Shown: positions 31,370-58,330 of the stretch, one piece after another
Numbering within the stretch: the stretch's first letter is position 1
Layout of the letters: every line of letters starts with the position of its first letter
Origin: a virus
Lineage: Duplodnaviria; Caudoviricetes
Direction: 5' to 3' (one strand)
DNA: 64,000 nucleotides
Virus record (IMG/VR): IMGVR_UViG_2934336660_000001
Location: 1 to 64,000 of that record
Notes under the pieces: generated by a model
Told to the model about the DNA's origin: nothing
What the model saw: only the letters and a program-made list of their open reading frames with translations
Database searches by the model: none
Position numbers and translations under genes: made by a program

Positions 31370-32773
31370 CTACGGCAGCAGCACGTCCCGCCACCGCCAC
31401 GCCAGTTCGAGACACCCCGCGCCGGCAGGGGCGACCTTCCCCGAGTCGAGTAGCCCGCGCACCCCGTCCTGCGTGAACGCGTACCGCTCGGCGACAACCT
31501 GGCCCTCGTCGTTGCGGTCCACGAAGTCAGCAGCGAGGGAGTCGAACACGTCGGCGTCGACCACCAGCACCGTCAGGATCTCCCCGACCAGGGTCAGCGC
31601 GTCCAACGCAACACCCAGGCAGTGCACCGACAGGCGCCCGTCGGCCCGCGCCTCATCGAGCTGCGCGAACGGCCCCGACGCGTAGTCGACCGGCCGGCCG
31701 TGCCCGTCGCACTCCGGCATGCCCAGCAGTTCCTCGGAGAACTCGCGTTGGATGTTGCGCCACAGGTCGAAGTCCAGGGCGCGGGCGGCGGGCAGGATCG
31801 ACGACGGTTGGAAGATGCCGCTGGGGATGACTTGGAGCATGCCGCCGGCTGCCGCCACGGCGCGTGGATCCCTGCGGTGCATCAAGAACTCAGCGGAGTC
31901 GCCGTCACGGCGGATCGTCAACGTCGAGATGGCGGGCATCACCGGGCGGCGGGCGCACACGAACGGGTTGCCGATCAGCCGCCGGTACGGCAGGTCCCGC
32001 ATGTGCGGGTGTGCCGACGGTTGGCCGTCCGCGTCTAACGCCACGTACGCCAACTCGTGGGCGGTCGGTTCGAACACGTCCACGGCGCTGAAGTAGGTCG
32101 TCTCCCCGAACGACATCGCCCCCGCGCTGGGCGACCAGTCGACGCCGAGCATCCGCCACGACAGGCGATCCTCAAACAACCGCGGCGGCGCCAGGTCCCT
32201 GACGGCACGCGTGTACCGGTCGTACGAGCGGGACAACGTCAGGTCCGGTAGCGACCGAGCTGCCTCCCGCTCCGTCCCATCCAACGCAGGCTCCGGTGCG
32301 CCCGGAACCTTCGTCACGGTGATGTCCGCCAAGTCCACGGGCGCATCCGGGATCCAACCCGGGCCGGCAATCAGTCCGGTGTCGCCCAGGCGGTGCTCCG
32401 GGTACAAGTCGGCGGCCACCTGCGACAGGCGGTGCCGGTTCTGGTTCAGCAGCGTGCGGGTTGCCTTCCACTGGTCCTGCGAGTCGCGCACTCGCGGGTC
32501 CTGCTCGACGTCTGGCATGAAGTCCTCTGCGCTCGACCGTTGACGGGGAAGCAGCGCCGGGCCCGCAGTGATCCCCAGGTCGGCCACAGCCACCCCGAAC
32601 ACCCGCGCCAGCTCGCGCCGATACCGCAAGGAAGGGGGCACCTCGCCCCGCTCCCACCGACCCACATGCGCCTCAGTGACCGCCGGCCCGATCTGGTCGG
32701 CGACGTCCCGCTGCGTCCACGACCGTTCCTCGCGCAGGGCGCGAATCCGGTTCGGTGCGTCAGTGGTGTTCAT
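31370..32773 (-). CDS. XRE-HTH fused to a NUDIX-like domain
   Basis: N-terminal RALREERSWTQRDVADQI...WERG; C-terminal FLMHRRD...QVIPSGIFQP...NIQREFSEELLG. Confidence 0.75.
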   Translation of the reverse strand: MNTTDAPNRIRALREERSWTQRDVADQIGPAVTEAHVGRWERGEVPPSLRYRRELARVFGVAVADLGITAGPALLPRQRSSAEDFMPDVEQDPRVRDSQDQWKATRTLLNQNRHRLSQVAADLYPEHRLGDTGLIAGPGWIPDAPVDLADITVTKVPGAPEPALDGTEREAARSLPDLTLSRSYDRYTRAVRDLAPPRLFEDRLSWRMLGVDWSPSAGAMSFGETTYFSAVDVFEPTAHELAYVALDADGQPSAHPHMRDLPYRRLIGNPFVCARRPVMPAISTLTIRRDGDSAEFLMHRRDPRAVAAAGGMLQVIPSGIFQPSSILPAARALDFDLWRNIQREFSEELLGMPECDGHGRPVDYASGPFAQLDEARADGRLSVHCLGVALDALTLVGEILTVLVVDADVFDSLAADFVDRNDEGQVVAERYAFTQDGVRGLLDSGKVAPAGAGCLELAWRWRDVLLP

Positions 32774-32950: not shown

Positions 32951-33307
32951 TCAGGTCGGGTCTTCGGAGTCGCCGTGGAAGGCGCGGCGCCGCTCGTCCA
33001 GCAGCCGGATCACGTCGGCTGGGTTGCACTCGCGCTGCGGCTTCTGGGGTGCGCCGGGGATCTTCCGGTGGCCGATCACCCCGGCTTTCACCAGCGTGTG
33101 GACCTTCGTTCGGCCCATGCCGAGCAGGGTGGCAACAGTGCCGGTCTTCAACCACTCGCCAGCACGTACCCGGCGTTCAAGGTCGGCGACCTCGTCTTGT
33201 GGGCGCTTGGCGCGCTGTTCGTCCCCCATCACCACTGCTCTCAGCCGCTGGAATTTGCGGTGAGCGTACCCACCGTTCGAGGTGTTCGCGATCACCGCCG
33301 TGGCCAT
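32951..33307 (-). CDS. Excisionase-like/MerR-type HTH protein divergent from the transfer operon
   Basis: EWLKTGTVATLLGMGRTKVHTLVKAGVI; start may be 33229. Confidence 0.7.
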   Translation of the reverse strand: MATAVIANTSNGGYAHRKFQRLRAVVMGDEQRAKRPQDEVADLERRVRAGEWLKTGTVATLLGMGRTKVHTLVKAGVIGHRKIPGAPQKPQRECNPADVIRLLDERRRAFHGDSEDPT

Positions 33308-33336
33308 TGATGCTCTTCCGCTCCGATCGTGCTAGT

Positions 33337-33403
33337 GTTCAATCTGTTCGCGCAGTTCAATCTGTTCGCAAGTCTGGCACAGGAAAGCCGATAACGCGAA
33401 CAG
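33337..33403. promoter_or_regulatory. Direct repeats GTTCAATCTGTTCGC x2 plus an inverted half-site
   Basis: 33337-33351, 33355-33369; GCGAACAG at 33396. Confidence 0.7.
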
Positions 33404-33424
33404 CCAAAAGCCCAGCCAGAGGAG

Positions 33425-34987
33425 GTGCCGCCGGTGATCGTCAACGCCGTCACGTTCATCCCCGACCCGGGAGAGCCGGTCCGCCCGACCGCGCCCGCAG
33501 CCCCCGTGGCGGCGGACCCGTCGTGGATGGATCAGGCGCTGACATTCGCCGACCAGCACCAGCAGGTCATCGCCATCGCCGCCATCGGCATTGCGAACCT
33601 GATCGCCCTTCGGCTCCTTACCAAGGTCATCCGCCGCAAGAAGGGCACCCCCGCAGTCAGCGAAGGTCGGGTGCGCAAGGCGCTCGTCTACCTGGCTGCC
33701 AGCATCGGCTCCGCGTTCACCCTCACCTCGATGTGGAACGTGTTCGAGCACTCGTTCAACATCGACAACTGGGGCGTGCGGCTCGTCCTCTGCGGTGTCT
33801 TCGAAATCATGATGCTGTCGTCGGCCGTGAACTCGCGGGCGTTCCGCCTGCGTCGGGCCAAGCAGCAAAGCGAGCTGAGCACGCCCACCGAGAGCCCGGC
33901 CGCCACGCCAACCGCTGAGCGACGCGAACTCGATGTCGACGGAATCGCCGTGTGGGTGTTCGCCGCAGTCGCCGGTGTCATCTGCTTCACCGACTCCACC
34001 AACCCCGTCGAAGCGGGCATGCGCGGCTTCCTGCCCCTCGCCGTCGCCTGGATGTGGGAGCGGGCCATCGCAGCCGACCTCCGCACGTTCGCCCGCACCG
34101 TCCGCGACAAGAAGATCAACCTGCGGATCAGCACCGAACGGATCCTCGTCGCCCTCCGCATCGCCGAACCCACCGGGCGGGACGTCAGCGAAGTCGACAA
34201 AGCCCGCTACCGGTCCGCGTTTACGATCGCCGCGTTCAAGCTGCACACCCTGCGCGCCGACAAGGCCCTGCACTGGCGGATCAGCATCGCCCGGTGGAGG
34301 CTGCGCCGAGCCGGCCTCGCCATCATGAAGCGGTCCGGTGTCGCCGAACTGGTGGCCGCCCGCCGGGACGTCGCCACCCTGTACGGCATTGAGGACTTCA
34401 CCGCCCCCGACGCCGTCGGGCACCTCGCCGGATGGCGGGACCGTGTCATCGACGTCACCCCCGCTGACGGTGACACCACCAACGCTACTGACGCCGCCAC
34501 CCTGACGCAGGCACCCGCCCAGTCGCCCGCCGTCACCGGTACCGCCACCAACGCGCCCACCGTGACGCGCCCCGCCGTGACGCCCACCGTCACACAGTCA
34601 GCCGTCAGCGGTGTCATCGTCACCAACACCCCCGCCACCAACGGTCGGGTGCGCCCCCTCAGCCGCGACGTCATTGACGCCGAGTTCGCGTCGTGGACCA
34701 CCCAGCAGGTGGAGGACTACGCCGCGGAACGTGCCCGGCACGTGCTCGCCGAAACCGACAACAAGACGGCTGGGATGCGCGAATACTTCCTGATCTGCCT
34801 GGCCCTGGGCGTCGAGCCGAAAGGCAGCGCCATGGCGAAAGCCGTCGGCGCGTCCGGTGGGTTGGGCCGCGGTAAGGCCATCGAGTGGCATGGGGCGCTG
34901 GCCGTTGATGACGCCGAGTCGGTGCTCCGTGGCGCCCTCGCACGCGTCACCGCTGAGCGCGCCGCTGGGGGTGACGACCGTGACTGA
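33425..34987 (+). CDS. Multi-TM protein resembling actinomycete plasmid spread/transfer proteins
   Basis: About 5 TM helices, Thr/Pro/Val-rich linker, possible C-terminal HTH; GGAGG RBS. Confidence 0.55.
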   Translation: MPPVIVNAVTFIPDPGEPVRPTAPAAPVAADPSWMDQALTFADQHQQVIAIAAIGIANLIALRLLTKVIRRKKGTPAVSEGRVRKALVYLAASIGSAFTLTSMWNVFEHSFNIDNWGVRLVLCGVFEIMMLSSAVNSRAFRLRRAKQQSELSTPTESPAATPTAERRELDVDGIAVWVFAAVAGVICFTDSTNPVEAGMRGFLPLAVAWMWERAIAADLRTFARTVRDKKINLRISTERILVALRIAEPTGRDVSEVDKARYRSAFTIAAFKLHTLRADKALHWRISIARWRLRRAGLAIMKRSGVAELVAARRDVATLYGIEDFTAPDAVGHLAGWRDRVIDVTPADGDTTNATDAATLTQAPAQSPAVTGTATNAPTVTRPAVTPTVTQSAVSGVIVTNTPATNGRVRPLSRDVIDAEFASWTTQQVEDYAAERARHVLAETDNKTAGMREYFLICLALGVEPKGSAMAKAVGASGGLGRGKAIEWHGALAVDDAESVLRGALARVTAERAAGGDDRD

Positions 34988-37219
34988 CCCCGTTACCCGC
35001 ATCGAGCAGGTGCGTCACCCGGCCGTCACCCCGACGCCCGTCACTGCCCCCGTCACGTTGGTCGCCGCTTCCGCGTCGGCCGTCACTGGTGACGCGCCCG
35101 TCACCGTCACCGAGGGAGCCGCACTGCTTCACGACCTGACGCACCTTCCGGCCGACATTCACCGGAACGCGCTCGCGTACCTGCGGGGGCTGTGGCCGGA
35201 GTACCCGAAGACCATGCCGAACCTGATCACCGAACCGGAGGAGGACCCCGATGAGCGTTGACCACCTACCCGCCCGCACCACCACGGTTGCGGCAACTGG
35301 CACCACCGAGATCAACACCGTTGGCGACGAGGCTCCCCCGTCAGCGGGGAAGACGCTGGACCACGCCAACATCCACGCGCACAAGGACTGGCGGCACATC
35401 GCCTCCGAGTGGGTGGGCCTGGCCGCCGCGTTCACCGCCGCCGCCGCGGTCGGCGGAATGGCTACAAACACGCTGCTGGCGGTGTCCCACACCCTGGCCG
35501 TCATCGCGGGCGCGCTGGTCGGTGTGCTGGTGTGGCTGCTCGCCGAGAAGTACCGGGAGGGCCGCCGGTGGGTGTACGCCGAGACCGACGTCCCGTACAA
35601 CGGCGACATGCCCGGAACGCCCTGACCAGTGCAAACGCGAGGAATTCGAGACTCCATGGCATCGAAAATCTATGAGATCAACGTCTTCAAAGATCAGCGG
35701 CCGGTGCGGGACATGCCCGCGTTCCTGTCCGCCGTTGACCTCGAAGACGGCGAAAACACCGAACGCACCCTCAACCAACATCTGCTGGGCGCGGTGCGCC
35801 GCGCCAACGCCCACCGCAGCGACATCCATCGATTCCATCTGGAATTTCGGGACATCGATGCTGGCGGCAAGGCGCGCGGGCCGGTGCTGTTCCGCTGGGT
35901 GATGCCCGCATCGGAGGACGCGTGATGGCCGGGCGGTCTAGGAAACCCGAGGTCAACCGGCAGCAGTGGCATGAGAAGCGGGTCGCCGCTGCCCGCACCC
36001 CCAAGGAAACGCTGTGGGCGCTGTGCCACTGGCTGGTGGCGGAGGCGTTCCACGCCGGACCGGACCAGATCCAGGCCGCGACCGTGATGGTCCGCGACCG
36101 GATCAATGAGCTGACCGAGGCCAGGAAGGAGGCGACCCGATGACGACGACTGTCACCGAGCGTGAAATTCGATCCCCCCACAATGGGCGGATCCCGAAGC
36201 TGGACAGCCCGCCCGCGCCCGCGCGCACGGGCGCGAGGGTACCGGTCACGTTGAGTTTCAGCAAGGCGTGGGCTGCGCTGCGCTCGTCGTGCACCTCATG
36301 GTGGGCGTGGACGTCACGTCCGGCGTCGCTGGCTGACCTGTGGGCAGGGTCCGCCGTCGACTCGAAGCGGATCCCCGCCAACGTCGGCGTGCTGCGCATC
36401 GCCTGGCAGGTGTCGAACTGGACCGACCGTCTGCTTATGTTCGGCCTCATCGCCGTCGCCCCCACCTTCCTGACCGGGCCGCTGCGGTGGCTCGCCACCC
36501 GACCCACCCGACGGTGGGGGTTCTACCTCATCCTCGCGGCGTTCGCCGCCACCTTCGCCCTCGGAAAGGGGTGACCTGCCATGTTCAACGTGGGTATCGG
36601 CTTCGGCCTCGTCATCATCGCCATCACCGCCCAGTTCCTCATCTCGAAGCGACTCAAGCACGCGAAGGTGTCCAAGGCGTTCTCGTGGATTGCGTGGGGT
36701 GGCGCGCTGCTCGGCGGGGTGGGCATGTCCTCGGAGTTCGGCAACGCCGTCGGCATCAGCGCCGGTGGGGCGGCTATCGCCTCGCTGGCGGCGCTGATGT
36801 TCATCATCGTGGACGTCGCGGACCGGCGCCCCGACTGGCCGGCGTTCATCCTCATCTGCCTCGCGCCGACGCTGATGCGGATCTGCGGCGGGCCACTGGG
36901 CAACCTGTACGACGCGGCCCTCACCCCACTCGACGGCATCCTCACGGGGCTGCGCGCCTTCATGGGGATGTGACCAGTGAGCATCCTTCGCAGCAGCGTC
37001 GCCGCGGCAGCCCATCGCTTGGTCTGCGGCACCACCGCAGACCAAGCGCCAGAGGACGGCTGCGTCGGGTATGGCGCCCCGGCTGCCGACGCCTACGTCA
37101 CAACGGGATGCGACCACTGTTCGGCCCCGGGTGAGGGGTTCTGCTGGACGTGCATCGACAGCTCATTGATCAGCCTGGCCGACCTGACTGTCTTCGCAGG
37201 CCGCGAGCGGAAGGAGTAA
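34980..37219 (+). other. Seven small genes of the transfer operon (34980-35261, 35251-35625 2TM, 35656-35925, 35922-36143, 36140-36574 TM, 36581-36973 4TM, 36977-37219 Cys-rich)
   Basis: Overlapping starts/stops, hydrophobic helices. Confidence 0.65.
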
Positions 37220-37222
37220 GAC

Positions 37223-38314
37223 ATGGACCCGATCTCCATCGCCGTGACGGTCCTCGCCATCTACGGCATGTTGCAGCGGTCGCCTCAGTGGGCTGGGGAG
37301 ATGGCCGAGGAGTGGCGGGCCGCCCGCCGAGGTGAGGTGTCCCCGGCTGCTGCGGCCCGCAGACAGCGACTCATCAACGCCGGTGTGGATCCGGCCGCCG
37401 GCGGACCGATGCGCCAGTACGTGGGCAACCGGTGGCGGGAGCACTGGCTTGACGCCGACGCGAAAGCCACCCAAAGGCGCGCCGACCGACTCGACAAGGA
37501 AGCCGCCGGGGAGGTGCTGTCGCGCCGGGAGCGGATGCAGTCGCGCCTGGACGACGAGGTGACCCGCCGCGCCGAGCAGTGGCGTACCCGGGAACCCGGC
37601 GACATTGTGCCGCCGGTGTCCACCAACAAGGGTGGCGACAAGCCGGGGCCTGGCACCCCGGGTGGTGGTGCGCCCTCCCCTTCGAGCGACACCACCCCAC
37701 CGAGCACCCTGCAACCAGCTGCCCGCGGCGGAAGCGCTAACACCCGAACTGACGTCGGAGATCCCGACCCGATCCCCGACGACTTCGACGGCGTGTACAG
37801 CAGCACCGTCCACGACGACGACTACTACACCAACCCGGGCCGCCCTCGGGAGCAGCCGACCACCGCGAACCCCGGTGGCGGCACCAGCGCCACCAACGAC
37901 CGTGACCCGATCCGGGTGGACGCCACCGTCGGCGCCCACGCCCGCAGCAACACCCAACCCGCCGCAACTGCGGCGATCACCGCAGGAGGAACCACCATGT
38001 CCAACGCCGTAGCACAGCAGGCCGTCACCGGTGTCATCTCCGGCGCCGCCGAGGCCCGCGCGATCCAGGCCGCCCTCGCCCGCGCCACCGAGGACTACGT
38101 GGCGCAGCTCAACCGGCTGCGCGCCCGCATCTACTCCCTCGGCGAGCAGACCCTGGGCACCGTCCAGATGTCCGGCAAGTCCCACGTCGTCGCCAACACG
38201 GCCGCCGCCGCTGAGGCCGCCGCCGCGGCGACCGCGAACGCCCGCGCCTGCACCAACGAGGTGGAGCCGCTGCTGGGCAACGTCGCCCGCGCCTTCGACC
38301 GCATCAACAGCTGA
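37223..38314 (+). CDS. Transfer-associated protein: N-terminal TM, Pro-rich linker, helical C-terminal domain
   Basis: AAGGAG RBS; directly upstream of the FtsK ATPase; strong internal RBS+ATG at 37997. Confidence 0.65.
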   Translation: MDPISIAVTVLAIYGMLQRSPQWAGEMAEEWRAARRGEVSPAAAARRQRLINAGVDPAAGGPMRQYVGNRWREHWLDADAKATQRRADRLDKEAAGEVLSRRERMQSRLDDEVTRRAEQWRTREPGDIVPPVSTNKGGDKPGPGTPGGGAPSPSSDTTPPSTLQPAARGGSANTRTDVGDPDPIPDDFDGVYSSTVHDDDYYTNPGRPREQPTTANPGGGTSATNDRDPIRVDATVGAHARSNTQPAATAAITAGGTTMSNAVAQQAVTGVISGAAEARAIQAALARATEDYVAQLNRLRARIYSLGEQTLGTVQMSGKSHVVANTAAAAEAAAAATANARACTNEVEPLLGNVARAFDRINS

Positions 38315-38339
38315 CCCGCACCACGACGAGGAGGACGCC

Positions 38340-40793
38340 ATGGCAGTGACAACGCACCGGCCGGTGGCGCTGCCCAACAGCGCGCCCACCCCGACGACGA
38401 ACCCGACGGTGAAGCCGACCCCCATGCCGGTCCCGGTGGGGGCGGCCCGCATGCAGGCGTGGTACATCGACGCCGCCGACGACCGGCGCAAGCGCATGCC
38501 GCACCTGGTGCCGGTCGACGACGACAATCACCGCACCGACCACGTCCGCCACCAGTGCCCGAAGATGCGCAACCTCAACGGCGGCGGACGGGAGCGCTGC
38601 GAGGAGCACGCCTGGCTGCGGCCGACGGATCCCGCGTTGTTCTGCCAGCGGCACGGGGACAAGCTGGAGCCGCCGCAGGCAGCGCCGAAGGCCGCGCAGT
38701 TGTTTGTTGAGGCGAAGCGGCTGCACGGGCGTACCGCCGCGGCGTGGGGGCTGCCGGCCGCCGCCGCCGCGACGGACCTCATCGCCGCGCTCGCCGACCT
38801 GCCGCCCTCGCACGTCGGCGTCACCGCACCCGCGGCCGCCGGCGTCGTCTTCGTCGTGACGAAGCGGAAGCTGACCAAGCGCGCCATCGCCCGCAACCGC
38901 ATCGAGAAGGGTCAGCGCACCGGCAAGCGGATCCAGGCCATCACCCGCCGGGCCCAGCGCGCCGCGCTCACCGCCGGGGAGACCGGCCTGTGGGCGACCG
39001 CGCTGGCCGCCACCGATATCAACACCTGGGCGGGGCGCATCGTCGCCGCCGCGGGCATGGTCCGCTGGGCGTTCAGCATGCGCTCGTGGTGGGCCGCCAC
39101 CGACGCCCGACGTGCGCCGGCCCCGCCCCCCGCCCCGGTGACCGTGGACGTGACCGCGGCGGAACAGCCGGTGGATGCCCCCGACCCGCTGCGCCTGCGC
39201 GCCATCACCACCTGGGCGATGCTCATCGGCCTCACCGGCGGGCCCCTCGCTGGCACCGAACTGGTCCACTACCAGCAACTGCCCGCGTGTGAGGTCGGCG
39301 CGGCCACCCGCACCCGGCTGCCGAATTGGACGGCGAAGGTCGTCGCGAAGGTCCCCGGGTCCATCAACATGCGCGAGTCGCGACCGAACCTGCTCGGCCG
39401 CATCGCCGCCGCCTACGGGTGCACCTACGCCGACGTGTCGTTCAGCGCCGACGAGTCGGACCTGTCCATCGGGTGGCTGCGGGTGCAGCCGGACAACCCG
39501 CTCGCCGAGACGAAGATTTGGCCCGGCCCGAAGGTCGCCAGCGACTGGCGTAACGGCCGGTCCCGGGTCGGCCGCTTCAACGACGGCCGCGACATCTGGT
39601 ACCAGTGGTGGACGAAGACGGGCGCGATCCACGACCTGATCTCCGGGTGCACCGGCTCCGGCAAGTCCGAGCTTGTCGCGCAACTGCTGCTAGCGTCCCT
39701 GCACTCCGAGGGTCAGGTCATCGACTGGGTGGGTGACCCGCAGGGCGGGCAGTCCTACGGGCAGTTGAAGGACGCCGTCGACTGGTTCGCCCGCGACACC
39801 TCCGAGATCCGGTTGATGCTGCTCGCGGCGCTCAAGGAGATGCTGCGCCGCAACGACGAGTTGTCCGAGAACAACATCAAGACGTGGCGTCCCAGCCTGG
39901 ACATGCCGCTGCTGGTCATCACCCTCGACGAGGTCCAGTCGATCATCGAAGACCCGATCATCCTGGAGCTGGTGGAGAAGCTGGTCGGGATGGGCCGCAA
40001 GTGCGGCATCAAGATGCGGCTGATCACGCAAATCCCGGCGGCGTACAACCTGGGCGGTTCCACGTACATCAAGGAGCAGTTGAAGGCCGGACAGACGCTG
40101 ATCTTCCGGGCGATGACCGATGTTGCCGGCCGCTCCGCCGTCGACAGTGACTGCCCCGTGGACCCGACAGAGTTGCCGTCGGTGTGGGGTGCGAACACCT
40201 GCGCCGGTGGGGACACCACCGCCGGGTTGATGTTCGTGCAGGGCGTCAACGGCCGTGACGTGTACGGGCGCGCCGACTACACCGGCGACGACATGGGTGT
40301 GTGGCTGGTCGACGGTGAGGGCCAGTCGACGTTGACGCCGGGGGTGTTCGGCCCGGAGGCGCAGCAGGAATCGGGTGTGCTGTGGGGTGACCGTAAGGAA
40401 CGCGCCCGGCGGCTACTCGCGGCTGGCCGGTCGGACGCGGATCTGCTGTCGGGTGGGAAGGCCATCGAGCTGTTGGAGGCGGCGGCGGTCACGCAGGCCA
40501 CCCCGGCGGCGCAGCGTCCCCCAGAGCAGCCATCACCGGCCGCGCAGAAAACCGCCCGGGTGTCCCGTGACGTGGTGTTGGAGGCGGCGCGGAAGGCCGC
40601 CAACGATCGAGGTGTGGTCACGAGGGATCAGTTGATCGCGGAGCTTGCCTCGATGGTCGAGCCGATGAAGGACGGCACCCGCGACAAGGCGCTCACCGAC
40701 CTGATGGCTGACGGCAAACTCCGCCGGGTCAAGAACGGCTTGTATGAGGTTCCGGGTGTCGCGGCGACCCTGTTCGACGGGGCGACCAACTGA
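38340..40793 (+). CDS. FtsK/SpoIIIE-family (TraB-like) DNA translocase
   Basis: N-terminal membrane segments, Walker A HDLISGCTGSGKS, Walker B LLVITLDE, GMGRKCGI..ITQ, C-terminal winged helix. Confidence 0.85.
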   Translation: MAVTTHRPVALPNSAPTPTTNPTVKPTPMPVPVGAARMQAWYIDAADDRRKRMPHLVPVDDDNHRTDHVRHQCPKMRNLNGGGRERCEEHAWLRPTDPALFCQRHGDKLEPPQAAPKAAQLFVEAKRLHGRTAAAWGLPAAAAATDLIAALADLPPSHVGVTAPAAAGVVFVVTKRKLTKRAIARNRIEKGQRTGKRIQAITRRAQRAALTAGETGLWATALAATDINTWAGRIVAAAGMVRWAFSMRSWWAATDARRAPAPPPAPVTVDVTAAEQPVDAPDPLRLRAITTWAMLIGLTGGPLAGTELVHYQQLPACEVGAATRTRLPNWTAKVVAKVPGSINMRESRPNLLGRIAAAYGCTYADVSFSADESDLSIGWLRVQPDNPLAETKIWPGPKVASDWRNGRSRVGRFNDGRDIWYQWWTKTGAIHDLISGCTGSGKSELVAQLLLASLHSEGQVIDWVGDPQGGQSYGQLKDAVDWFARDTSEIRLMLLAALKEMLRRNDELSENNIKTWRPSLDMPLLVITLDEVQSIIEDPIILELVEKLVGMGRKCGIKMRLITQIPAAYNLGGSTYIKEQLKAGQTLIFRAMTDVAGRSAVDSDCPVDPTELPSVWGANTCAGGDTTAGLMFVQGVNGRDVYGRADYTGDDMGVWLVDGEGQSTLTPGVFGPEAQQESGVLWGDRKERARRLLAAGRSDADLLSGGKAIELLEAAAVTQATPAAQRPPEQPSPAAQKTARVSRDVVLEAARKAANDRGVVTRDQLIAELASMVEPMKDGTRDKALTDLMADGKLRRVKNGLYEVPGVAATLFDGATN

Positions 40794-41530
40794 TGACCGC
40801 GCAGCGTCAAACCCGCGTGCCCCGTCGGCGCCCGCCTGCGGGTGAGCGCCGCAAACGCGCCGTGTACGGGATTATGACCCTCGACGTGGACGCCCGCGGC
40901 ATTCCGATCCCGGGCGCCGCCCCGGTGGTCGGATACATCGGCCAGTCGCGGCAGACGGTGTGGCAGCGGGAGCAGCAGCACCGCGATGAGCAGCCGTTCT
41001 CCGATTTGATCGTCGGCGGTTCGTGGACGATCGAAGAGGGCTGGTGGACGCAGCAGCAGTTGGATGAGCGGGAGCAGCACTACATCCGCCGGGGGGTGTC
41101 TCTGCTGCCCGGCCAGGAGGCGCAACGCCCGAAGTACAACATTGACTGCAATCGGGAAAACCGGGACCGGATCAAGCCGTGGGATGCGGTGGCGCACCGG
41201 CAGGCGCGTGAGCCGGGCTGGGTGAAGCCGGCGAAGGGCTCGTTCGTTTCCCGGCAGCGCACGTACGGTCCGCCGCAGAATATGGCTCGGGCGGTGCGAC
41301 GCCGGCCCCGGTTTCGGTGGACGCGTCGCCGGATCCGTGCGGCTGTGCTGACTGGTGTTTGGTTGGTCCTGTTCGCCGGGTTTTGGTGGGCTGGCTGGGA
41401 TGTGTGGCACGGCTGGGATGGGCCCCGCAACGCGGCAATTGGTACCACTGTGGTGATGGCGTCTGCGGCTGCCGCATGGCAGTGGGCGTCGAAGCCGCAG
41501 CGCCGCCGCCGCCGCAGGTCCCGCCGGTGA
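40793..41530 (+). CDS. GIY-YIG nuclease with two C-terminal TM helices
   Basis: AVYGI...GYIGQS...R.QQH...E..YI...PKYN, then two hydrophobic helices; TGATG coupling to FtsK. Confidence 0.75.
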   Translation: MTAQRQTRVPRRRPPAGERRKRAVYGIMTLDVDARGIPIPGAAPVVGYIGQSRQTVWQREQQHRDEQPFSDLIVGGSWTIEEGWWTQQQLDEREQHYIRRGVSLLPGQEAQRPKYNIDCNRENRDRIKPWDAVAHRQAREPGWVKPAKGSFVSRQRTYGPPQNMARAVRRRPRFRWTRRRIRAAVLTGVWLVLFAGFWWAGWDVWHGWDGPRNAAIGTTVVMASAAAAWQWASKPQRRRRRRSRR

Positions 41531-41775
41531 GTACCTGGCGGTGGGAAGCGTTCGATTCATCCGGCACGGCCATGATCGCCGACACCCTTACCGACCCGTT
41601 CGCGGAAACACCTACTGAGGCCGCCGACCTGGGCATGGCCCGGTTGCTGATCCGGGTTGAGCCGGATTACGGGCAGTTGCGGGGGTGGCGTGTGCGGGCG
41701 TGGGCTGATGGTTGTGGTGAGGCGTGGGCGGACGCGGACGAGTGGTTGCAGGTTGCTGAGGGTTCCCGCCGTTAG
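41527..41775 (+). CDS. Small hypothetical protein ending the transfer operon
   Basis: GTGA overlap. Confidence 0.55.
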   Translation: MSTWRWEAFDSSGTAMIADTLTDPFAETPTEAADLGMARLLIRVEPDYGQLRGWRVRAWADGCGEAWADADEWLQVAEGSRR

Positions 41776-41961: not shown

Positions 41962-41998
41962 TTTACATCTGACCCCCCAACTCGTATAGTTGCTATAC
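41962..41998 (+). promoter_or_regulatory. Promoter TTTACA-17-TATAGT overlapped by palindrome GTATAG-ttg-CTATAC
   Basis: Near-consensus sigma70-type spacing upstream of 42020. Confidence 0.7.
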
Positions 41999-43421: not shown

Positions 43422-44675
43422 ATGACAGGCAAAACACCCGCCAAGCAGACCATCGGCGAGAAACTGAAGCGTCACCGCAAAGCCAACCGGCTCACCCAAG
43501 AGCAGTTGGCCGAACGCGCGGACCTCAGCATCGAGATCGTGCGGAAGCTGGAACAGAACGTGCGCCGCTCGACCAGCCTCGCCACCCTCCATGCGCTCGC
43601 CCGCGCCCTCAACGTGCCCACCACGGCCCTCATGGGTGACGCCGCTGAGGCCGCCGCCCGCGCCGAACCGGACCACCGGCCACTGTCGCTGGCCGCTATC
43701 CGCCGCGTCGTCGCCCCGGTGCGTGGACTCAACGGCACGCTGCTGACCCTGCCGGCCGGCGATCCGCCCACCCTTGACGTCCTCACCGGACGCCTACGCG
43801 CCGTTGACCGCACCTACCAGCGCAACAACTACGCCGAGGCGCTGTCAGTGTTGCCGCCGCTGCTCGCCGACGTTCGCGCCGCCGTCGACATCGCCAACGA
43901 CCGGGACCGGCCGGACGCGTACGCGCTGCTGGCCCGCACCCAACACCTGACCGGGAACCTGCTCATCCAACTGCGCGCAGGTGACCTCGCGCAGACCGCG
44001 CTAACCGGGGCGCTTGACGCCGCCCGCCAGTGCGGCAATGAGGACGTCGCCGCCACCGTCGTCCAGGGCATGTGTTGGCTGCTGATGCGGCAGGGTCGGC
44101 TGGCCGAGGCCGCCGAACTTGCCACGGCTACGGCCGATCAGGTGGAGCCGCGGTTTTCCCGGGCCACCCCGACGCAGTTGGCGGCGTGGGGGTGGCTACT
44201 GGTGGCGGGTGCCGCCGCATACGCCCGCGACAATCAGCCGGGTGTCGCAGCGGACCTGGTCGACGCGGCGCAGGCCGCGGCCGTACGGATCGGCGAGCGC
44301 GCACCGGAGCCCGGACATCTGATGATGGTGGGCGGGTTCGACTCGGGGCGCGTGCAGATGGCCCGGGTGGAGAACGCCGCGGTGGCTGGCGACCCTGGGC
44401 GCGTGTTGGATTTGGCGCGGCTGGTACCGGCGGGGCCAACGCCGGTGGGGTCGAGTTGGCAGCGCCACCGGCTAGATGTGGCGTGGGCGCACGCGCAGCG
44501 CCGCGAGCATGGCGACGCCACCGCTGTGCTGGTGGAGTTGCGGCACCTTGCGCCGGCATGGTTGCGGCAGCAGCGGTACGCGCGGGAAATCGTGAACGTC
44601 ATTTCTGATGGGCGTCGGCGGGCGATGACAGAGGATCTGGCGGATCTGGCGTCGGTGGTCGGCTACACACCCTGA
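43422..44675 (+). CDS. XRE HTH regulator with a long helical (TPR-like) C-terminal domain
   Basis: LKRHRKANRLTQEQLAERADLSIEIVRKLEQ...LARAL; Ala/Leu helical repeats. Confidence 0.85.
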   Translation: MTGKTPAKQTIGEKLKRHRKANRLTQEQLAERADLSIEIVRKLEQNVRRSTSLATLHALARALNVPTTALMGDAAEAAARAEPDHRPLSLAAIRRVVAPVRGLNGTLLTLPAGDPPTLDVLTGRLRAVDRTYQRNNYAEALSVLPPLLADVRAAVDIANDRDRPDAYALLARTQHLTGNLLIQLRAGDLAQTALTGALDAARQCGNEDVAATVVQGMCWLLMRQGRLAEAAELATATADQVEPRFSRATPTQLAAWGWLLVAGAAAYARDNQPGVAADLVDAAQAAAVRIGERAPEPGHLMMVGGFDSGRVQMARVENAAVAGDPGRVLDLARLVPAGPTPVGSSWQRHRLDVAWAHAQRREHGDATAVLVELRHLAPAWLRQQRYAREIVNVISDGRRRAMTEDLADLASVVGYTP

Positions 44676-46130: not shown

Positions 46131-46493
46131 TCAGCCCGTGATGGCCGGCGCCTTGGAGCGGATGCCGTTGTCGGACGCCGCCGGGGCCGCCGCCACACCG
46201 AGCGCCTGCCCCGCCGTGAGAACCAGCAGGATCCACTCGTTGCCGTCCAGGCCGCCGAGGATCAGCGTCGCGGCCACCTGGAGCACGGCGAGCAGCGTGT
46301 TCACGGCGGTCTTACTCCACCGGTACTGCGGGGCGAGCGGCACGAGGTAGGTGCCGGCGGCACCCGTCACGGCGATGGCGACGGCCACCCACTCGGTCCC
46401 GTCGATCGAGTTGTCGCCGGACACCGACACGTAGACGACAATCAGGCCAGCGAAGAACGTCGAGGCCAGGGCCTTGCCGTAGGTCTGGAACAT
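46131..46493 (-). CDS. Holin-like 4-TM membrane protein
   Basis: Hydrophobic, internally duplicated (DGTEW/DGNEW), end of the lysis cassette. Confidence 0.65.
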   Translation of the reverse strand: MFQTYGKALASTFFAGLIVVYVSVSGDNSIDGTEWVAVAIAVTGAAGTYLVPLAPQYRWSKTAVNTLLAVLQVAATLILGGLDGNEWILLVLTAGQALGVAAAPAASDNGIRSKAPAITG

Positions 46494-46508
46494 CGGGGCT
46501 CCTAGGGT

Positions 46509-46721
46509 GTGGTCGTGGTGCGTGGTGGATACGCCCGGCAGCCGGACGGCTCACGGGCATGGCAGGAATGGCGGCCGGACGCCTGCCCGAACGGGCACAC
46601 GCGGCTGGGTGCGGCGACGTGGGCGTGCCGGGTGTGCACCTGGCCCACCCGGGCGTGGCCGTGCCTGGAGGGCGACTGCCGGGAGGTGGTCTGGGATCCC
46701 GACCACGTCCACGGGGAGTAG
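46509..46721 (+). CDS. Small Zn-finger-like protein inverted within the lysis cassette
   Basis: CPNGH...CRVC...C...C; fills the gap between two minus-strand genes. Confidence 0.5.
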   Translation: MVVVRGGYARQPDGSRAWQEWRPDACPNGHTRLGAATWACRVCTWPTRAWPCLEGDCREVVWDPDHVHGE

Positions 46722-46722
46722 G

Positions 46723-47064
46723 TCAGCCGCAGCGCTGCGACGGCGGCGCCGGCAGCGGGTTCGCCCGCCGCGTCTCGTTCGCCTTCTCCCGCGACTCGTT
46801 GTACGTCCGCAGCGCGTCGATCCCGGCCCGGGGCTGCTCACCGATCGACCGGAACAGCACGTCTTGGGCCTGCCGGTCCTGCTCTGCCGCCGCGTACCGG
46901 GCGGCCTGGGAGCGGTTGTTGGCCTCGTTGTAGTCGGCTAGGCACTGCGTGAGCTGGCGTTGCTGCACACCGATGTACACCGACAACAGCAACGCCACCA
47001 CGGCCACCACCTTGACGGCCATGTCAGCCGCGGACGAGTTCAGGGCGCGTACCACCGGGGTCAC
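46723..47064 (-). CDS. Membrane-anchored coiled-coil lysis-region protein
   Basis: One N-terminal TM, two Cys. Confidence 0.65.
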   Translation of the reverse strand: MTPVVRALNSSAADMAVKVVAVVALLLSVYIGVQQRQLTQCLADYNEANNRSQAARYAAAEQDRQAQDVLFRSIGEQPRAGIDALRTYNESREKANETRRANPLPAPPSQRCG

Positions 47065-47162
47065 CGGTCATCACCGCCGATCTTGTTGAGCAGGGGACGC
47101 AGCGCCAAGCCGAGGCCGCCGGCCACCGCCAAGGACAGCAGGACTTGCAGGCCATAGCTCAC
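47061..47162 (-). CDS. 33-aa single-TM peptide (MSYGLQVLLSLAVAGGLGLALRPLL...)
   Basis: GTGA overlaps on both sides, GAGGAG RBS. Confidence 0.55.
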   Translation of the reverse strand: MSYGLQVLLSLAVAGGLGLALRPLLNKIGGDDR

Positions 47163-47371
47163 GAGGTTGTCTCCTCAACGGGGGTGGGCGGGGAAGGGTC
47201 CTGCGCACCGCGCCGGCCCAGAGCGGGCGGGGCCAGGGCCAGGACCAGGAAGGCGGGTACGCCGAGCAGCGCGGCGTCGGGCAGCTTCCCCTGGGCGAGG
47301 TAGGCGATGACCACACCGACCCAGGTACCCAGCCCGACGAGCATCACCAGGTTGCGGAGCCACGTCGACAT
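47159..47371 (-). CDS. Holin-like 2-TM protein
   Basis: Directly after the endolysin; two TM helices. Confidence 0.65.
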   Translation of the reverse strand: MSTWLRNLVMLVGLGTWVGVVIAYLAQGKLPDAALLGVPAFLVLALAPPALGRRGAQDPSPPTPVEETTS

Positions 47372-47399
47372 GCTGCTCCCCGTCGATCGTCGTGATGAT

Positions 47400-56900: not shown

Positions 56901-56985
56901 TGCGGACCTCGTCAGCCCCGCCGCGCAGCCCCCGCTTGAACTGGGCAAGCTCGGCAACGAACTGCACGGAGATACGACGTGCCAC
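53920..56985 (-). CDS. Tape measure protein
   Basis: 1021 aa, Ala/Gly-rich helical, follows the tail chaperones. Confidence 0.9.
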   Translation of the reverse strand: MARRISVQFVAELAQFKRGLRGGADEVRNVKREAVAAQREVAALGDVGEKAGRQLGDGIVRGADGKLRDSRGKFVKAGQDSGKGFGDGFEQGTRRGFSKVAGILGGGLLTAGGAAPWQGLAAIPAVAGVASASLQTIPPLLAAIGGGLGAIPSLAAGSAASIGTVKLATAGLGDAIKETFADERDPYLQLSRNGQQFVTVLGSQRHALADLRHLAQDTVFAGLDREVNDLAQVALPFARTQVVRFGQTWNTTFRQVAALGRDPGFLNGLDAAFDTADGFFDKVNQRIPATGRSLGLLFTSSVPAVNAWGDGLLAYGDQFNEWIDRTARSGQLDRFFQDAAKQADALLDIGQEIFTLIARIGGMQSGSTLLRDMADALARFNNEAHNMQSVEGIIRTGNAAIEGVVDVLVVLGETLGETLADPGTAAAVGMFFDVLRVGAEVVGGLAQVFGLLPDPIQAVLLAGAGLVLLGGRLHSAFGKAGAAVGGLTDRLNAAGPAGERAARGVDASAKAAGRAAVALVALQAAQVVLQQFRDAAPDVERLSKALQEYAVTGKVTGEATRVFGAGLGDLGKDVNAASDSWFPKLGRSIEGIIPGARELNEAIFGGSWTGGAENVKALDDALVRLVETSGKTAGIEAWNRVLSESGMNADELIKLLPGYEQAMKNADMSAGSATATQQLLSGSMQDAITTMGSYTRAWEVLNGAQLSSDEAALAAKDAIDEVSEAFKTNKDVVTGNSRAALENRIAVGQAAQAAAEAAQKKYDETQSIDVANAAYDSYIAALRRTLDQTNLTDAEIDTLLATYAKMPPVKQTAVSAPGTGAATQQVTDFNFAVRNVPPSKTVPFWASTGEATAAVNALKSKINELQSKHIYISGTVRWTSTGDLKVPGGTLRKDRWGGVHEGGYAKAATGLLREAEVFTPRNPGRYMIAEPQTGGEAFIPKVGDRERSISIGRRAMEWYGMAVVPKAWLSANRWGIQAASQGNAVAAAPAGGGPVTVNLSAYSNQFSLSQVMQDLAMRGAR

Positions 56986-57003
56986 CGGACACCCCCAACC
57001 AGG

Positions 57004-57456
57004 TCAGAGGGCGTTGCGGGGTTTGGGAGAGCCGCGTCGTACCCGCACCACGCGGGGAATGAGCGCCCGCTTGTCGTCGGGGTCCGCCTTGTGCAACCGC
57101 ATGGCGGTGGTCACCGCGCACTCGGCGGGGGTGACCGGCCAGTAAATCCACTGGGCGCGCGGGTTGTTCCGGTCGGCATCTTTCGACTGGCACACCGACG
57201 CCGGGCCACCGCAGTGCGGGCACAGGTCGTTCTCGTATTCGGCGAGGGCCAGCATCCAACCGCGTTGTTCCTCATCCCACGCCGACTCCACCCACTCGGT
57301 GGAGCGCACCACCCTGCCGTCGCCGTCGTGCTCATACTCGGTGACCCGGTCAGGCGTCCAGCCGTCGAACTCGCGCAGGCTCAGCCCAAGCCGCCTCGCA
57401 GCATCAACCCTCGCTAGGAGGCTCGGATCAGCTGTGAGACGGCGAACGAGTTTGGG
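57004..57456 (-). CDS. Tail assembly chaperone extension (gpGT-like) reached by -1 frameshift
   Basis: The -1 frame is open from C CCA AAC through 57004. Confidence 0.75.
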   Translation of the reverse strand, partial: PKLVRRLTADPSLLARVDAARRLGLSLREFDGWTPDRVTEYEHDGDGRVVRSTEWVESAWDEEQRGWMLALAEYENDLCPHCGGPASVCQSKDADRNNPRAQWIYWPVTPAECAVTTAMRLHKADPDDKRALIPRVVRVRRGSPKPRNAL

Positions 57457-58028
57457 ACGTCAACCTTGCGGATACACAGGTGGAGGGCGGTGTTCTGAAG
57501 TTGGGCGAACTGCCACTCCGTGAGTTTGCCGTCTTCCACCGGCTCGCCGGCCTTCTCCAGCCGTGCCCGCTCATCGTCGTTGTCGCCCAGCAGTTCCCGC
57601 CACGTGTCGTCGTCGAGGTCGTCGGGACTGTACGTGCACGACCGAATGAGGGCTTCCATGAACGCCTCAACGTTGTAGCCGAGCTTCGCGTCTTCCTCGT
57701 TGTCTTTGCGCGGCGGGTGCTGCTTGAGCAGGGCGTCCCACGCCTTGCGGTGCAAGGCGCGCATCCGGAACACGATGGTGTCGGCGCGCATCTGGTCCTG
57801 CACGGCGGTGATCTGCGCACCGATCTCGCGGGCACGGTGGTCCCCGGCGAGCCGCTTGTCCTTCGCCGCCGCAGCCTCAGCGTCAGCCAACTGGCGGTGG
57901 AGGTCTTCCCACTCGGCTTGCAGGTCACCACGCAAGCAGATGTCAACGGTGCGCTCCGGCAGCGCCGCCGACTTGAGGCGGTCCTTCGTGCTCAGCCGGC
58001 CAGGTTCGGCAGCGGTGGCATCCGTCAT
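57414..58028 (-). CDS. Tail assembly chaperone (gpG-like)
   Basis: Between tail tube and tape measure; slippery heptamer near its end. Confidence 0.8.
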   Translation of the reverse strand: MTDATAAEPGRLSTKDRLKSAALPERTVDICLRGDLQAEWEDLHRQLADAEAAAAKDKRLAGDHRAREIGAQITAVQDQMRADTIVFRMRALHRKAWDALLKQHPPRKDNEEDAKLGYNVEAFMEALIRSCTYSPDDLDDDTWRELLGDNDDERARLEKAGEPVEDGKLTEWQFAQLQNTALHLCIRKVDVPNSFAVSQLIRAS

Positions 58029-58234: not shown

Positions 58235-58272
58235 AGTCAGCCCTTTCGTATCAGCCCTTGGACACGGTTGAA

Positions 58273-58310
58273 GGCGGTGTGGGCTAAGGGCTGAGGAAGC
58301 CCACACCGCC
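58273..58310 (-). terminator. Hairpin after the major tail gene
   Basis: GGCGGTGTGGGCT...AGCCCACACCGCC. Confidence 0.55.
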
Positions 58311-58330
58311 AGATCAGGGGAGTGCGAGGG

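What the first reader, a model, noticed from the sequence alone, without database searches (positions are those of the whole stretch)
33300..41775. Tailed-phage region carrying a TraB/FtsK-type conjugation module: candidate conjugative phage-plasmid
Seen: a co-oriented 12-gene operon of membrane proteins plus an 817-aa FtsK/SpoIIIE ATPase (membrane N-terminus, Walker A GCTGSGKS, C-terminal winged helix), with a divergent HTH regulator and repeats. It is contiguous with phage accessory genes and lies about 4.5 kb from the lysis and virion operon, with no integrase or att-like boundary that I can see. Established: Streptomyces plasmids and AICEs move dsDNA between hyphae with a single TraB translocase plus Spd membrane proteins. 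Inference: the element may spread both as a virion and by hyphal conjugation.
Basis: partly seen in the sequence, partly recalled or inferred. Interest (0 to 1): 0.85.

Follow-up and report, generated by a model that had tools for sequence, protein, structure and literature searches.

The report
Plasmid-type DNA pump module in prophage
A 108-kb integrated tailed phage of a filamentous soil actinomycete carries, as a conserved part of its genome, the kind of membrane DNA-pump operon that actinomycete plasmids use to push double-stranded DNA between hyphae, so it may spread without virus particles, as already shown for two Streptomyces plasmid-phages.

Summary
Window 33425-41775 is a co-oriented 12-ORF operon. 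It encodes five clear membrane proteins and an 817-aa FtsK-family ATPase with Walker A GCTGSGKS and a C-terminal winged helix. A divergent HTH gene and operator-like repeats lie upstream.

The ATPase groups with plasmid Tra/TraB-type translocases, not with chromosomal FtsK or EccC. This rests on a tree and on profile comparisons (E 1e-30 and 1e-16 over 420-467 columns, against 161 columns for FtsK).

The element is not a plasmid. It is a clean 107,964-bp insertion in comM, with a large serine integrase, an RDF-like gene and att junctions outside the window.

Four related 100-115-kb phages in Micromonosporaceae keep the module between the lysis genes and the accessory arm, although their virion genes differ. 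One of them is assembled in both integrated and excised circular form. IMG/VR holds 43 further viral contigs with related ATPases.

None of the other module proteins shows detectable homology to Spd proteins. No clt-like site was found. Function is untested.

Conjugating Streptomyces plasmid-phages (pZL12, pFP4) are a published precedent. I therefore read this as an integrative variant of a known kind.

The parts
31370..32773 (-). 467-aa XRE-family HTH regulator flanking the module on the left
   Evidence: Pfam HTH_3 E 4e-11. PHROG repressor families. 72% identical homologue at the same place in G302.
32951..33307 (-). 118-aa divergent HTH (HTH_17/excisionase-MerR-like) regulator candidate
   Evidence: Pfam HTH_17 E 2e-4, 22 bits, below the cut-off of 27. 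Homologues in G301 and G302. The G281 counterpart scores HTH_17 E 1.7e-8.
33275..33369 (.). Operator-like direct repeats GTTCAATCTGTTCGC (two exact copies, one degenerate) in the divergent promoter region
   Evidence: the repeat finder family D5. TRF row 33336-33367.
33425..34987 (+). 520-aa membrane protein (3 TM segments), first gene of the operon. Positional analogue of plasmid DUF2637 proteins, but homology is not shown.
   Evidence: TM scan. ESM Atlas lead to DUF2637/SpdB clusters at 0.91. Pfam 0 of 24 family members. hhalign against plasmid DUF2637 proteins gives prob 0.06%.
35010..35261 (+). 83-aa Pro-Val-Thr-rich ORF holding 6-7 CCGTCAC(C) repeats
   Evidence: k-mer cluster. Sequence read. 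GC3 0.83. The same motif occurs 11 times in G301, but G302 and G269 have other motifs.
35251..35625 (+). 124-aa membrane protein
   Evidence: TM scan. Homologues in G301 and G302.
35656..35925 (+). 89-aa protein conserved in the related phages
   Evidence: 47-69% identity in G301, G302 and G281.
35922..36143 (+). 73-aa protein conserved in all four related phages
   Evidence: 44-79% identity.
36140..36574 (+). 144-aa membrane protein conserved in all four related phages
   Evidence: 52-85% identity. dN/dS 0.25-0.70.
36581..36973 (+). 130-aa polytopic membrane protein
   Evidence: 3 TM segments. 85% identity in G301 and G302. dN/dS about 0.3.
36977..37219 (+). 80-aa ORF
   Evidence: ORF list and GC3 0.80.
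37223..38314 (+). 363-aa protein with a low-complexity middle part, directly upstream of the ATPase. Conserved in all four related phages.
   Evidence: 41-66% identity. No Pfam or PHROG match. The Atlas gave no usable lead.
38340..40793 (+). 817-aa Tra/TraB-type FtsK-family dsDNA translocase. It has a beta-rich Cys/His N-domain, long helices 117-258, a pre-motor domain, a P-loop motor and a C-terminal winged helix.
40862..41530 (+). 222-aa protein with a conserved GYIGQS...R..H...YN N-terminal motif (GIY-YIG-like by eye only), two C-terminal TM helices and a poly-Arg tail
   Evidence: Alignment A7 of 9 sequences. No Pfam family. The AF2 model is too poor to search, pLDDT 52.
41530..41775 (+). 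81-aa last ORF of the operon
   Evidence: Sequence read. GC3 0.74.
41962..41990 (+). Promoter-like site TTTACA-17-TATAGT that opens the next transcription unit and so marks the end of the module
   Evidence: 10 of 12 matches, the only site found in 32700-43500.
43422..44675 (+). 417-aa XRE-HTH plus TPR-like phage regulator flanking the module on the right
   Evidence: phrog_5823 E 1e-120. Pfam HTH_3.
46131..48272 (-). Lysis cassette: three small TM (holin-like) proteins and a 290-aa endolysin candidate (by position only)
   Evidence: TM scan. phrog_17055 for 46131-46493. The holin-like genes are 57-90% identical in G281.
49571..63959 (-). Virion operon: GDSL lipase, tail proteins, 1021-aa tape measure, tail tube, DUF6093, major capsid, cement protein
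   Evidence: Pfam Phage_TTP_16 E 4e-50, Phage_capsid_4 E 1e-42, Phage_cement_2, SPP1_Dit.

Best explanation
The window lies inside one 107,964-bp temperate siphovirus-type prophage inserted in the host comM gene by a large serine integrase. Window 33425-41775 is an integral, conserved operon of that phage.

Its core is a Tra/TraB-type hexameric dsDNA pump: an FtsK-like motor with a C-terminal winged helix. It is accompanied by lineage-specific small membrane proteins.

Most likely mechanism (inferred, not shown):
1. The phage's own integrase and Gp3-like RDF excise the element.
2. The pump docks on a site in the circular phage DNA through its winged helix.
3. It translocates unprocessed double-stranded DNA across hyphal contacts and septal cross-walls. 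The membrane proteins play the part that Spd proteins play for plasmids.
4. The DNA re-integrates at attB in comM.

The phage would thus spread or establish lysogeny through a mycelium without virions, besides ordinary infection. The divergent HTH gene with its repeated operator would keep the operon under separate control from the oppositely oriented late genes.
For: One element:
- The comM halves flank the low-GC stretch.
- An uninterrupted attB in G303 aligns to attL and attR with a 3-bp overlap.
- The 541-aa frame of a large serine recombinase abuts attR. A PF18897 RDF-like gene is present.

ATPase type:
- NCBIfam plasmid_TraB is the best family, E 2.9e-19. EccCa reaches only 0.005.
- In the tree of 30 motor domains, the five phage proteins form a 100/100 clade. 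That clade lies inside a 97/98 clade of 14 with plasmid Tra-like ATPases. This larger clade is sister (88/84) to Micromonospora TraB-type proteins. FtsK (100/99) and EccC fall outside.
- hhalign of the 52-sequence family gives: against a Streptomyces phage-plasmid Tra and a linear-plasmid Tra, prob 99.85, E 1e-30, 467 columns (residues 288-807); against Micromonospora TraB-type proteins, prob 98.75, E 1.5e-16, 420 columns including the winged helix; against FtsK, only 161 columns.
- Foldseek's best PDB matches are the conjugation coupling protein TcpA (E 1e-14) and the FtsK motor (E 1e-13).

Context:
- The plasmids with the nearest ATPases have the same gene order by size.
- The module keeps its position in G302, G269, G281 and G301 while capsid identity falls from 85% to undetectable.
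- dN/dS is 0.25-0.5 for most pairs.
- The G281 assembly holds attP, attL-type and attR-type contigs that share one crossover point, so a family member excises.
- 43 IMG/VR contigs encode relatives. 20 of the 43 loci have a head, tail or lysis PHROG within 10 kb.

Precedent:
Against: - No transfer, expression or binding data exist.
- No clt-like site was found. The CCGTCAC cluster codes for Pro-Val-Thr repeats. G302 and G269 have other motifs there although the winged helix is nearly identical in all five proteins. No clustered k-mer is shared by the five elements.
- Apart from the ATPase, none of the module proteins tested is detectably related to plasmid proteins: tblastn found the ATPase only, and hhalign gave prob 0.06-0.15%.
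- The plasmid_TraB score of 69 bits is far under the 800-bit cut-off. The same model also scores chromosomal FtsK at 59 bits.
- pIJ101 Tra, the only experimentally known Tra in my tree, sits unresolved on a long branch.
- The N-terminal hydrophobicity of the ATPase is weak.
- The source run's contigs show only the integrated form.
Confidence: 0.55

Rival explanations
1. The pump and its membrane partners act on other DNA, not on the phage's own. An example would be an entry-exclusion or surface-exclusion device of the lysogen against incoming plasmids, AICEs or phages. Alternatively, they serve a membrane step of the lytic cycle.
For: The operon lies in the accessory arm, beside genes with defence-like domains: SocA/Panacea, PP2C and a PycTM-like 2TM protein. 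It is oriented against the late genes. No docking site was found on the element itself.
Against: PADLOC gives only weak P-loop matches for the ATPase (mad8 2e-5, SspH 1e-4) and an AbiEi match of 5.5e-4 at residues 780-807. It gives nothing for the other 11 module proteins scanned. The full-length architecture matches plasmid Tra proteins. Those have a known transfer role in the cited Streptomyces systems.
Confidence: 0.2
2. The module is a passenger: a plasmid or AICE fragment captured by an ancestor of these phages and carried along without a role for the phage.
For: The nearest non-phage relatives are plasmid genes. The accessory genes of the module are poorly conserved beyond the closest relatives.
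Against: All five ATPases have open frames, and all have a Walker A motif matching G..G.GK[ST]. dN/dS is 0.28-0.44. The position is fixed across phages whose virion modules were exchanged. Related ATPases occur in 43 IMG/VR contigs.
Confidence: 0.12
3. The module is a separate AICE or integrated plasmid that inserted into the prophage and would be absent from packaged DNA.
For: It has plasmid-type content, and a regulator gene stands on each side.
Against: No integrase, Rep or tRNA lies in or near it. No flanking direct repeats stood out. The same block stands between the lysis genes and the accessory arm in G302, G269 and G281, and inside the G301 prophage. The circular G281 form includes it.
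Confidence: 0.03

Closest known systems
Streptomyces plasmid-phages pZL12 (Zhong et al. 2010, J Bacteriol 192:3747) and pFP4 (Chen et al. 2012, Plasmid 68:170)
   Same: A tailed-phage genome that also carries actinomycete tra genes and is reported to conjugate. I saw only passages citing these papers (PMC3583192, PMC4170104, PMC4487206). A 90,155-bp circular Streptomyces plasmid, NZ_CP109510.1, shows such a layout: GntR, an operon ending in a Tra ATPase, then terminase, capsid, tape measure and lysis genes. That it is pZL12-like is my guess from size and layout, tested by no call.
   Different: Those are about 90-kb plasmids; ParA and ParB of pZL12 are named in the PMC4487206 passage. This element is 108 kb and integrated in comM by a serine integrase, with no ParAB found. 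Its host is Micromonosporaceae. Its ATPase is only 24% identical to that of NZ_CP109510.1. The pZL12 and pFP4 papers and sequences themselves were not available to me.
Tra/TraB-Spd-clt system of Streptomyces plasmids (pIJ101 Tra, pSVH1 TraB)
   Same: A single FtsK-like ATPase with a C-terminal winged helix, followed and preceded by small membrane-protein genes, with a divergent repressor gene. The pIJ101 layout was seen. The mechanism is as quoted in PMC3583192.
   Different: BLASTP to pIJ101 Tra gives only E 0.007. The accessory proteins are unrelated by the tests run. No clt repeats were identified. The regulator is an HTH_17-like protein, not GntR.
[quoted passage not shown]
   Same: Integrated, excisable, and carrying a Tra translocase (review PMC2440964 and PMC3218068, passages).
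   Different: The AICEs named in the abstract of PMC2440964 measure 10.9-17.3 kb and sit in tRNA genes; a Rep gene as a defining AICE component is from the PMC3218068 passage. Here the element is a 108-kb complete phage in comM. It has phage DnaB/DnaC/DnaN replication genes and a large serine integrase.
Tra-like module of Kitasatospora indigofera linear plasmid NZ_CP108210.1 and Streptomyces sp. NBC_00841 plasmid NZ_CP108855.1
   Same: These have the nearest non-phage ATPases, 32-35% identical over about 360-420 residues. The order by size is the same: a large membrane protein, small genes, a protein of about 300-400 aa, the ATPase, then a protein of about 200-240 aa.
   Different: No phage genes are annotated on NZ_CP108210.1. 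Only the ATPase is detectably homologous.
TcpA coupling protein of Clostridium perfringens pCW3, and the FtsK motor domain (solved structures)
   Same: Best structural matches of the predicted motor: E 1e-14 and 1e-13, TM by target 0.61-0.65.
   Different: 15-17% identity. TcpA works with a relaxase-type system. FtsK lacks this N-terminal region and pre-motor domain, and aligns over the P-loop core only.

Membership tests
Tra/TraB dsDNA translocases of actinomycete plasmids and AICEs | FtsK/SpoIIIE-type P-loop motor with Walker A and B | tested here: met
   GCTGSGKS at 436-443 and ITLDE from 527. Pfam PF01580 24.7 bits. Foldseek FtsK/TcpA E 1e-13 to 1e-14.
Tra/TraB dsDNA translocases of actinomycete plasmids and AICEs | C-terminal winged helix-turn-helix | tested here: met
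   AF2 helices and strands at 742-803 with pLDDT above 90. The region aligns to the C-termini of TraB-type proteins in hhalign.
Tra/TraB dsDNA translocases of actinomycete plasmids and AICEs | Groups with plasmid Tra proteins rather than FtsK or EccC | tested here: met
   Tree of 30 motor domains and profile comparisons. Caveat: pIJ101 Tra is unresolved, and no other experimentally studied Tra was in the tree.
Tra/TraB dsDNA translocases of actinomycete plasmids and AICEs | Reaches NCBIfam NF041214 (plasmid_TraB equivalog) cut-off | tested here: not met
   69 bits against a cut-off of 800. Micromonospora TraB-type genes reach 453-473 bits, also under the cut-off.
Tra/TraB dsDNA translocases of actinomycete plasmids and AICEs | N-terminal membrane anchor | tested here: inconclusive
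   Long helices at 117-258 in the model, but the best hydropathy is 1.41 and the helices carry charges.
Tra/TraB dsDNA translocases of actinomycete plasmids and AICEs | A clt locus with short repeats bound by the winged helix | tested here: inconclusive
   Only coding Pro-Val-Thr repeats (CCGTCAC) were found, and they are not conserved among relatives.
Tra/TraB dsDNA translocases of actinomycete plasmids and AICEs | Transfers double-stranded DNA between hyphae | not testable with these tools
   Needs matings.
Spd / SpdB / DUF2637 spreading proteins | Sequence membership (Pfam DUF2637 or SpdB families) | tested here: not met
   hmmscan gave 0 of 24 family members at E 0.01. hhalign against four positionally equivalent plasmid proteins, two of them annotated DUF2637, gave prob 0.06%. 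Only an ESM Atlas lead at 0.91 and one UniRef name point that way. The SpdB_N and HTH_SpdB_C models named by the Atlas may not be in the Pfam copy held.
Phage-plasmid | Complete phage gene set | tested here: met
   Capsid, tail tube, tape measure and lysis genes are in the window. MuF, 508- and 574-aa portal/terminase-position proteins, DnaB, DnaN, RusA, RDF and integrase are in the flanks. TerL homology to G269 is 54%.
Phage-plasmid | Plasmid replication or partition genes and extrachromosomal maintenance | tested here: not met
   No ParA/ParB/Rep by Pfam. Clean integration in comM. One contig of the source run spans attR, and no other junction was seen.
AICE | Int, Rep and Tra together in an element of about 10-25 kb | tested here: not met
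   The element is 107,964 bp. The integrase lies 64 kb from the Tra gene. No AICE-type Rep was found.
Type VII secretion EccC | Multi-domain EccC architecture and family score | tested here: not met
   It has a single P-loop domain. EccCa scores E 0.005. The genome's four EccC genes form the outgroup clade.

The most novel reading that the evidence does not exclude
Large temperate phages of mycelial actinomycetes routinely carry a TraB-type pump. They use it to move their excised double-stranded genome between hyphal compartments and between mycelia. They would then be at once phages and integrative conjugative elements. In that case this Micromonosporaceae lineage would be an integrative counterpart of the Streptomyces plasmid-phages, with a set of membrane partners unrelated to known Spd proteins.
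Probability: 0.4. Interest if true: 0.7.

Novelty: new variant of a known kind. Interest (0 to 1): 0.5.

Why it matters
If the pump moves phage DNA, lysogeny could spread through a mycelium and between strains without adsorption, receptors or capsids. That would blur the line between prophages and conjugative elements in antibiotic-producing actinomycetes. It would also explain why this gene family turns up in many predicted actinobacterial viral contigs (43 loci) but not in the isolated phages of the GenBank-derived collection.

The idea has an experimental precedent in Streptomyces plasmid-phages. The gain here is therefore in scope: an integrative form, another family of hosts, and a conserved but unrecognised set of partner proteins. 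It is not a new principle.

Tried and rejected
- **clt search:** local repeat, tandem-repeat and k-mer cluster scans gave only coding low-complexity repeats. A check for co-variation with the winged helix was negative.
- **Spd homology:** tblastn of the module proteins against five plasmid loci and pIJ101 found the ATPase only. Pfam at E up to 10 gave nothing of use. The hhalign comparisons were negative.
- **PDB by sequence:** nothing below E 0.47.
- **222-aa protein:** the AF2 model has pLDDT 52.3, so no fold search was run. The GIY-YIG likeness rests on my reading of motifs only.
- **363-aa protein:** the ESM Atlas gave no usable lead.
- **Sequencing runs:** no RNA holder is listed. Laying the one full holder (contigs, probably the source) on attR showed one contig across the junction and no joints or loose ends. 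This says nothing on excision.
- **comM in relatives:** the comM halves were not found in the fetched flanks of G301, G302 and G269. Their attachment sites differ or lie outside what I fetched.
- **Phage collection:** the window ATPase matched only 10 Bacillus phage records, at 30% identity over 18% of the query. The Tra of NZ_CP109510.1 matched none. pZL12 itself could therefore not be compared.
- **Accessions and papers:** NC_003904 was not in the collection. The pZL12 paper (PMC2897331) is not held.
- **Earlier scan notes:** none by place or by sequence.

Full report
**What is there.**

The window is G000:C1:243681-307680 of a 7.57-Mb, 36-contig genome. The closest protein homologues come from Micromonospora. 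Gene calling by third-position GC gave 110 ORFs in the window.

Between 33425 and 41775 there are twelve co-oriented + strand ORFs. They have no internal stops and GC3 of 0.74-0.93. Five are clearly membrane proteins.

The 817-aa protein at 38340-40793 has these features:
- Walker A GCTGSGKS at residues 436-443, and a Walker B motif.
- A marginal Pfam FtsK_SpoIIIE match of 24.7 bits, against a cut-off of 24.
- PHROG matches to 'FtsK/SpoIIIE-like protein' families.

A divergent 118-aa HTH gene lies at 32951-33307. Two exact copies of GTTCAATCTGTTCGC lie at 33337-33369 in the shared promoter region. A promoter-like site at 41962-41990 opens the next unit. Holin-like genes start 4.4 kb downstream, and the tail and capsid operon follows. 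One caveat: the N-terminus of the ATPase is only weakly hydrophobic.

**The element as a whole.**

The window lies in a stretch of 67-69% GC within a 71% GC contig. To the left are dprA and the 3' part of comM. To the right are the 5' part of comM, preceded by a large serine recombinase.

An intact comM from a genome of the same genus (G303) aligns to the left junction up to its base 1944 and to the right junction from its base 1942. The insertion is thus clean, 107,964 bp long, with a 2-3-bp crossover. The phage-side arms form an inverted repeat. In window coordinates the ends are -2885 and 105078.

The right arm holds MuF, portal- and terminase-sized genes, DnaB, a DnaC-like loader, DnaN, two WhiB genes, RusA, a Gp3-like recombination directionality factor, a C5 methylase and an antirepressor. 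No ParA, ParB or plasmid Rep was found. This is an integrated temperate phage, not a plasmid.

**Is the module part of the phage?**

Yes. tblastn of 185 ORFs of the element against fetched regions of four other genomes gave the following.
- **G302 (Micromonospora sonchi record).** A collinear prophage of about 106 kb: capsid 85%, ATPase 73%.
- **G269 (another genus).** A more distant collinear phage: terminase 54%, capsid 41%, ATPase 63%.
- **G281 and G301.** Both have the module and many accessory and replication genes, but other virion genes. G281 has a Mu-like portal, a Clp protease and a 1115-aa tape measure. G301 has an E-type capsid, an SPP1-like portal and a 1745-aa tape measure.

In G302, G269 and G281 the block sits between the lysis or tail genes and the accessory arm. 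In G301 the virion genes lie on the same side, but 8 kb of other genes intervene and no lysis gene was placed. All five ATPase frames are open. dN/dS is 0.28-0.44.

G281's contig C5 repeats its first 11,938 bp at its end at 100% identity, so it is a 114,874-bp circle. Contigs C10, C11, C12 and C6 of the same assembly join non-phage DNA of 71-72% GC to the phage at exactly one point beside the integrase gene. That assembly therefore holds both integrated and excised forms. A member of the family excises.

In a sample of 301 genomes of the family, 8 had a match at E 1e-20 or better. This count includes G000 and one unpublished genome, G213. The distribution is that of a mobile element.

**What kind of ATPase?**

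- **Family models.** NCBIfam's best family is plasmid_TraB (E 2.9e-19, 69 bits), far under its 800-bit cut-off. EccCa scores 0.005. The same model gives chromosomal FtsK 59 bits, so this score alone decides little.
- **Plasmid relatives.** tblastn against plasmids found 135 records, 117 of them Streptomyces. The best are 31-36% identical and are annotated as helix-turn-helix proteins. NCBI gives the same label to pIJ101 Tra.
- **Tree.** A maximum-likelihood tree of 30 motor domains puts the five phage proteins in a 100/100 clade. This lies inside a 97/98 clade of 14 with plasmid Tra-like ATPases, including that of the phage-plasmid-like NZ_CP109510.1. The larger clade is sister (88/84) to Micromonospora TraB-type proteins. 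FtsK and the genome's four EccC paralogues fall outside. pIJ101 Tra is unresolved on a long branch, and two long branches join each other. One row without a P-loop motif was left out.
- **Profile comparisons.** These agree with the tree: E 1e-30 over 467 columns and E 1.5e-16 over 420 columns against two Tra groups, both reaching the C-terminal winged helix, but only 161 columns against FtsK.
- **Structure.** The AlphaFold model (pLDDT 87.2) shows a beta-rich N-domain, four long helices, a pre-motor domain, the motor and a winged helix. Its best solved matches are the conjugation coupling protein TcpA and the FtsK motor.

**What is not shown.**

- Only the ATPase links the operon to plasmid transfer modules.
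- The 520-aa first protein stands where plasmids have DUF2637 proteins, and the ESM Atlas points to DUF2637/SpdB clusters. But hmmscan found nothing in 24 family members, and hhalign gave 0.06%.
- The 222-aa protein after the ATPase has conserved motifs that I read as GIY-YIG-like. No tool supports this.
- No clt-like site was found.
- PADLOC does not place the operon in a known defence system.
- No RNA run is listed, and the source contigs show only the integrated junction.

**Breadth.**

A pattern scan of IMG/VR with the family alignment returned 43 loci encoding relatives at 24-79% identity, on contigs of 10-173 kb. I scanned 81 proteins of 330 aa or more from these loci against PHROGs, leaving out the ATPases and the 5.2 kb upstream of each. 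Twenty of the 43 loci had at least one head-and-packaging, tail or lysis family at E 1e-8 or better within 10 kb. Often the terminase and portal lie about 5 kb downstream of the ATPase. The other 23 loci showed none in this limited test.

Isolated phages in the GenBank-derived collection lack the family.

**Comparison with what is known.**

Streptomyces plasmid-phages that both conjugate and form particles are in print (pZL12, pFP4). I saw this only in passages of papers that cite them. The pZL12 paper is not held, and the pFP4 paper I saw only as a cited reference and did not look up. My searches for TraB with prophage or phage-plasmid terms found no paper on integrated prophages with such modules, and none on Micromonospora. 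These searches cover open-access texts only.

Earlier notes of this scan describe the same idea in other genomes. They are unchecked AI notes, not independent evidence.

**Verdict.**

This is a real, conserved Tra/TraB-type module inside an integrated 108-kb phage. It is an integrative variant of the known conjugative plasmid-phage theme. The transfer function is plausible but untested.

Noticed in passing
window 15089-15184: Five to six direct copies of GGAACTAC(C) within 95 bp, overlapping the 3' end of a weakly scored 58-aa ORF call (14996-15172) and running into the gap that follows. Iteron- or operator-like.
   Followed up: no
window 49200-49243: Cluster of palindromic TGGTGGATATCCACCA-like words between the HNH/lysis genes and the tail operon.
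   Followed up: no
window 45822-45875: Four copies of ACCCACTA between a divergent 90-aa HTH gene (45539-45811, -) and a 47-aa ORF (45919, +). Operator-like.
   Followed up: no
window 16417-18086 and 21730-22251: Defence-like genes in the accessory arm: a SocA/Panacea antitoxin domain, a PP2C phosphatase and a PycTM-like 2TM protein (Pfam 28.3 bits; PADLOC 5e-5). A PycTM-like gene next to a NUDIX gene also stands in the G281 phage. A 'Pycsar effector family protein' lies two genes after the Tra-like ATPases on Micromonospora plasmid NZ_CP108881.1.
   Followed up: partly
L126-L129 and G281:C5 (L047, L048): One assembly holds attP (circle), attL-type and attR-type contigs of the related 114.9-kb phage. 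They share the crossover around ...gctatttcc/tggggg... beside a 513-aa serine integrase gene.
   Followed up: yes
L077 (NZ_CP108881.1, Micromonospora plasmid) 8530-12983: Two adjacent ATPase genes. One is a Tra-like 643-aa protein that groups with the window's wider clade. The other is an 807-aa protein that groups inside chromosomal FtsK.
   Followed up: partly
window 61655-62893: The best matches of the major capsid protein in the phage collection are two Methanoculleus virus records (39% identity) and 184-200-kb Streptomyces phages at 32-35%.
   Followed up: no
window 48223-48834 and L006:16212-17195: Two HNH endonuclease genes in the prophage. One is beside the lysis cassette. The other lies among the replication genes of the right arm, between a 109-aa ORF next to the DnaC-like loader gene and an antitoxin-like gene.
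   Followed up: no
window 4806-5378: A 190-aa protein with two Excalibur calcium-binding domains (E 5e-32) in the accessory arm.
   Followed up: no
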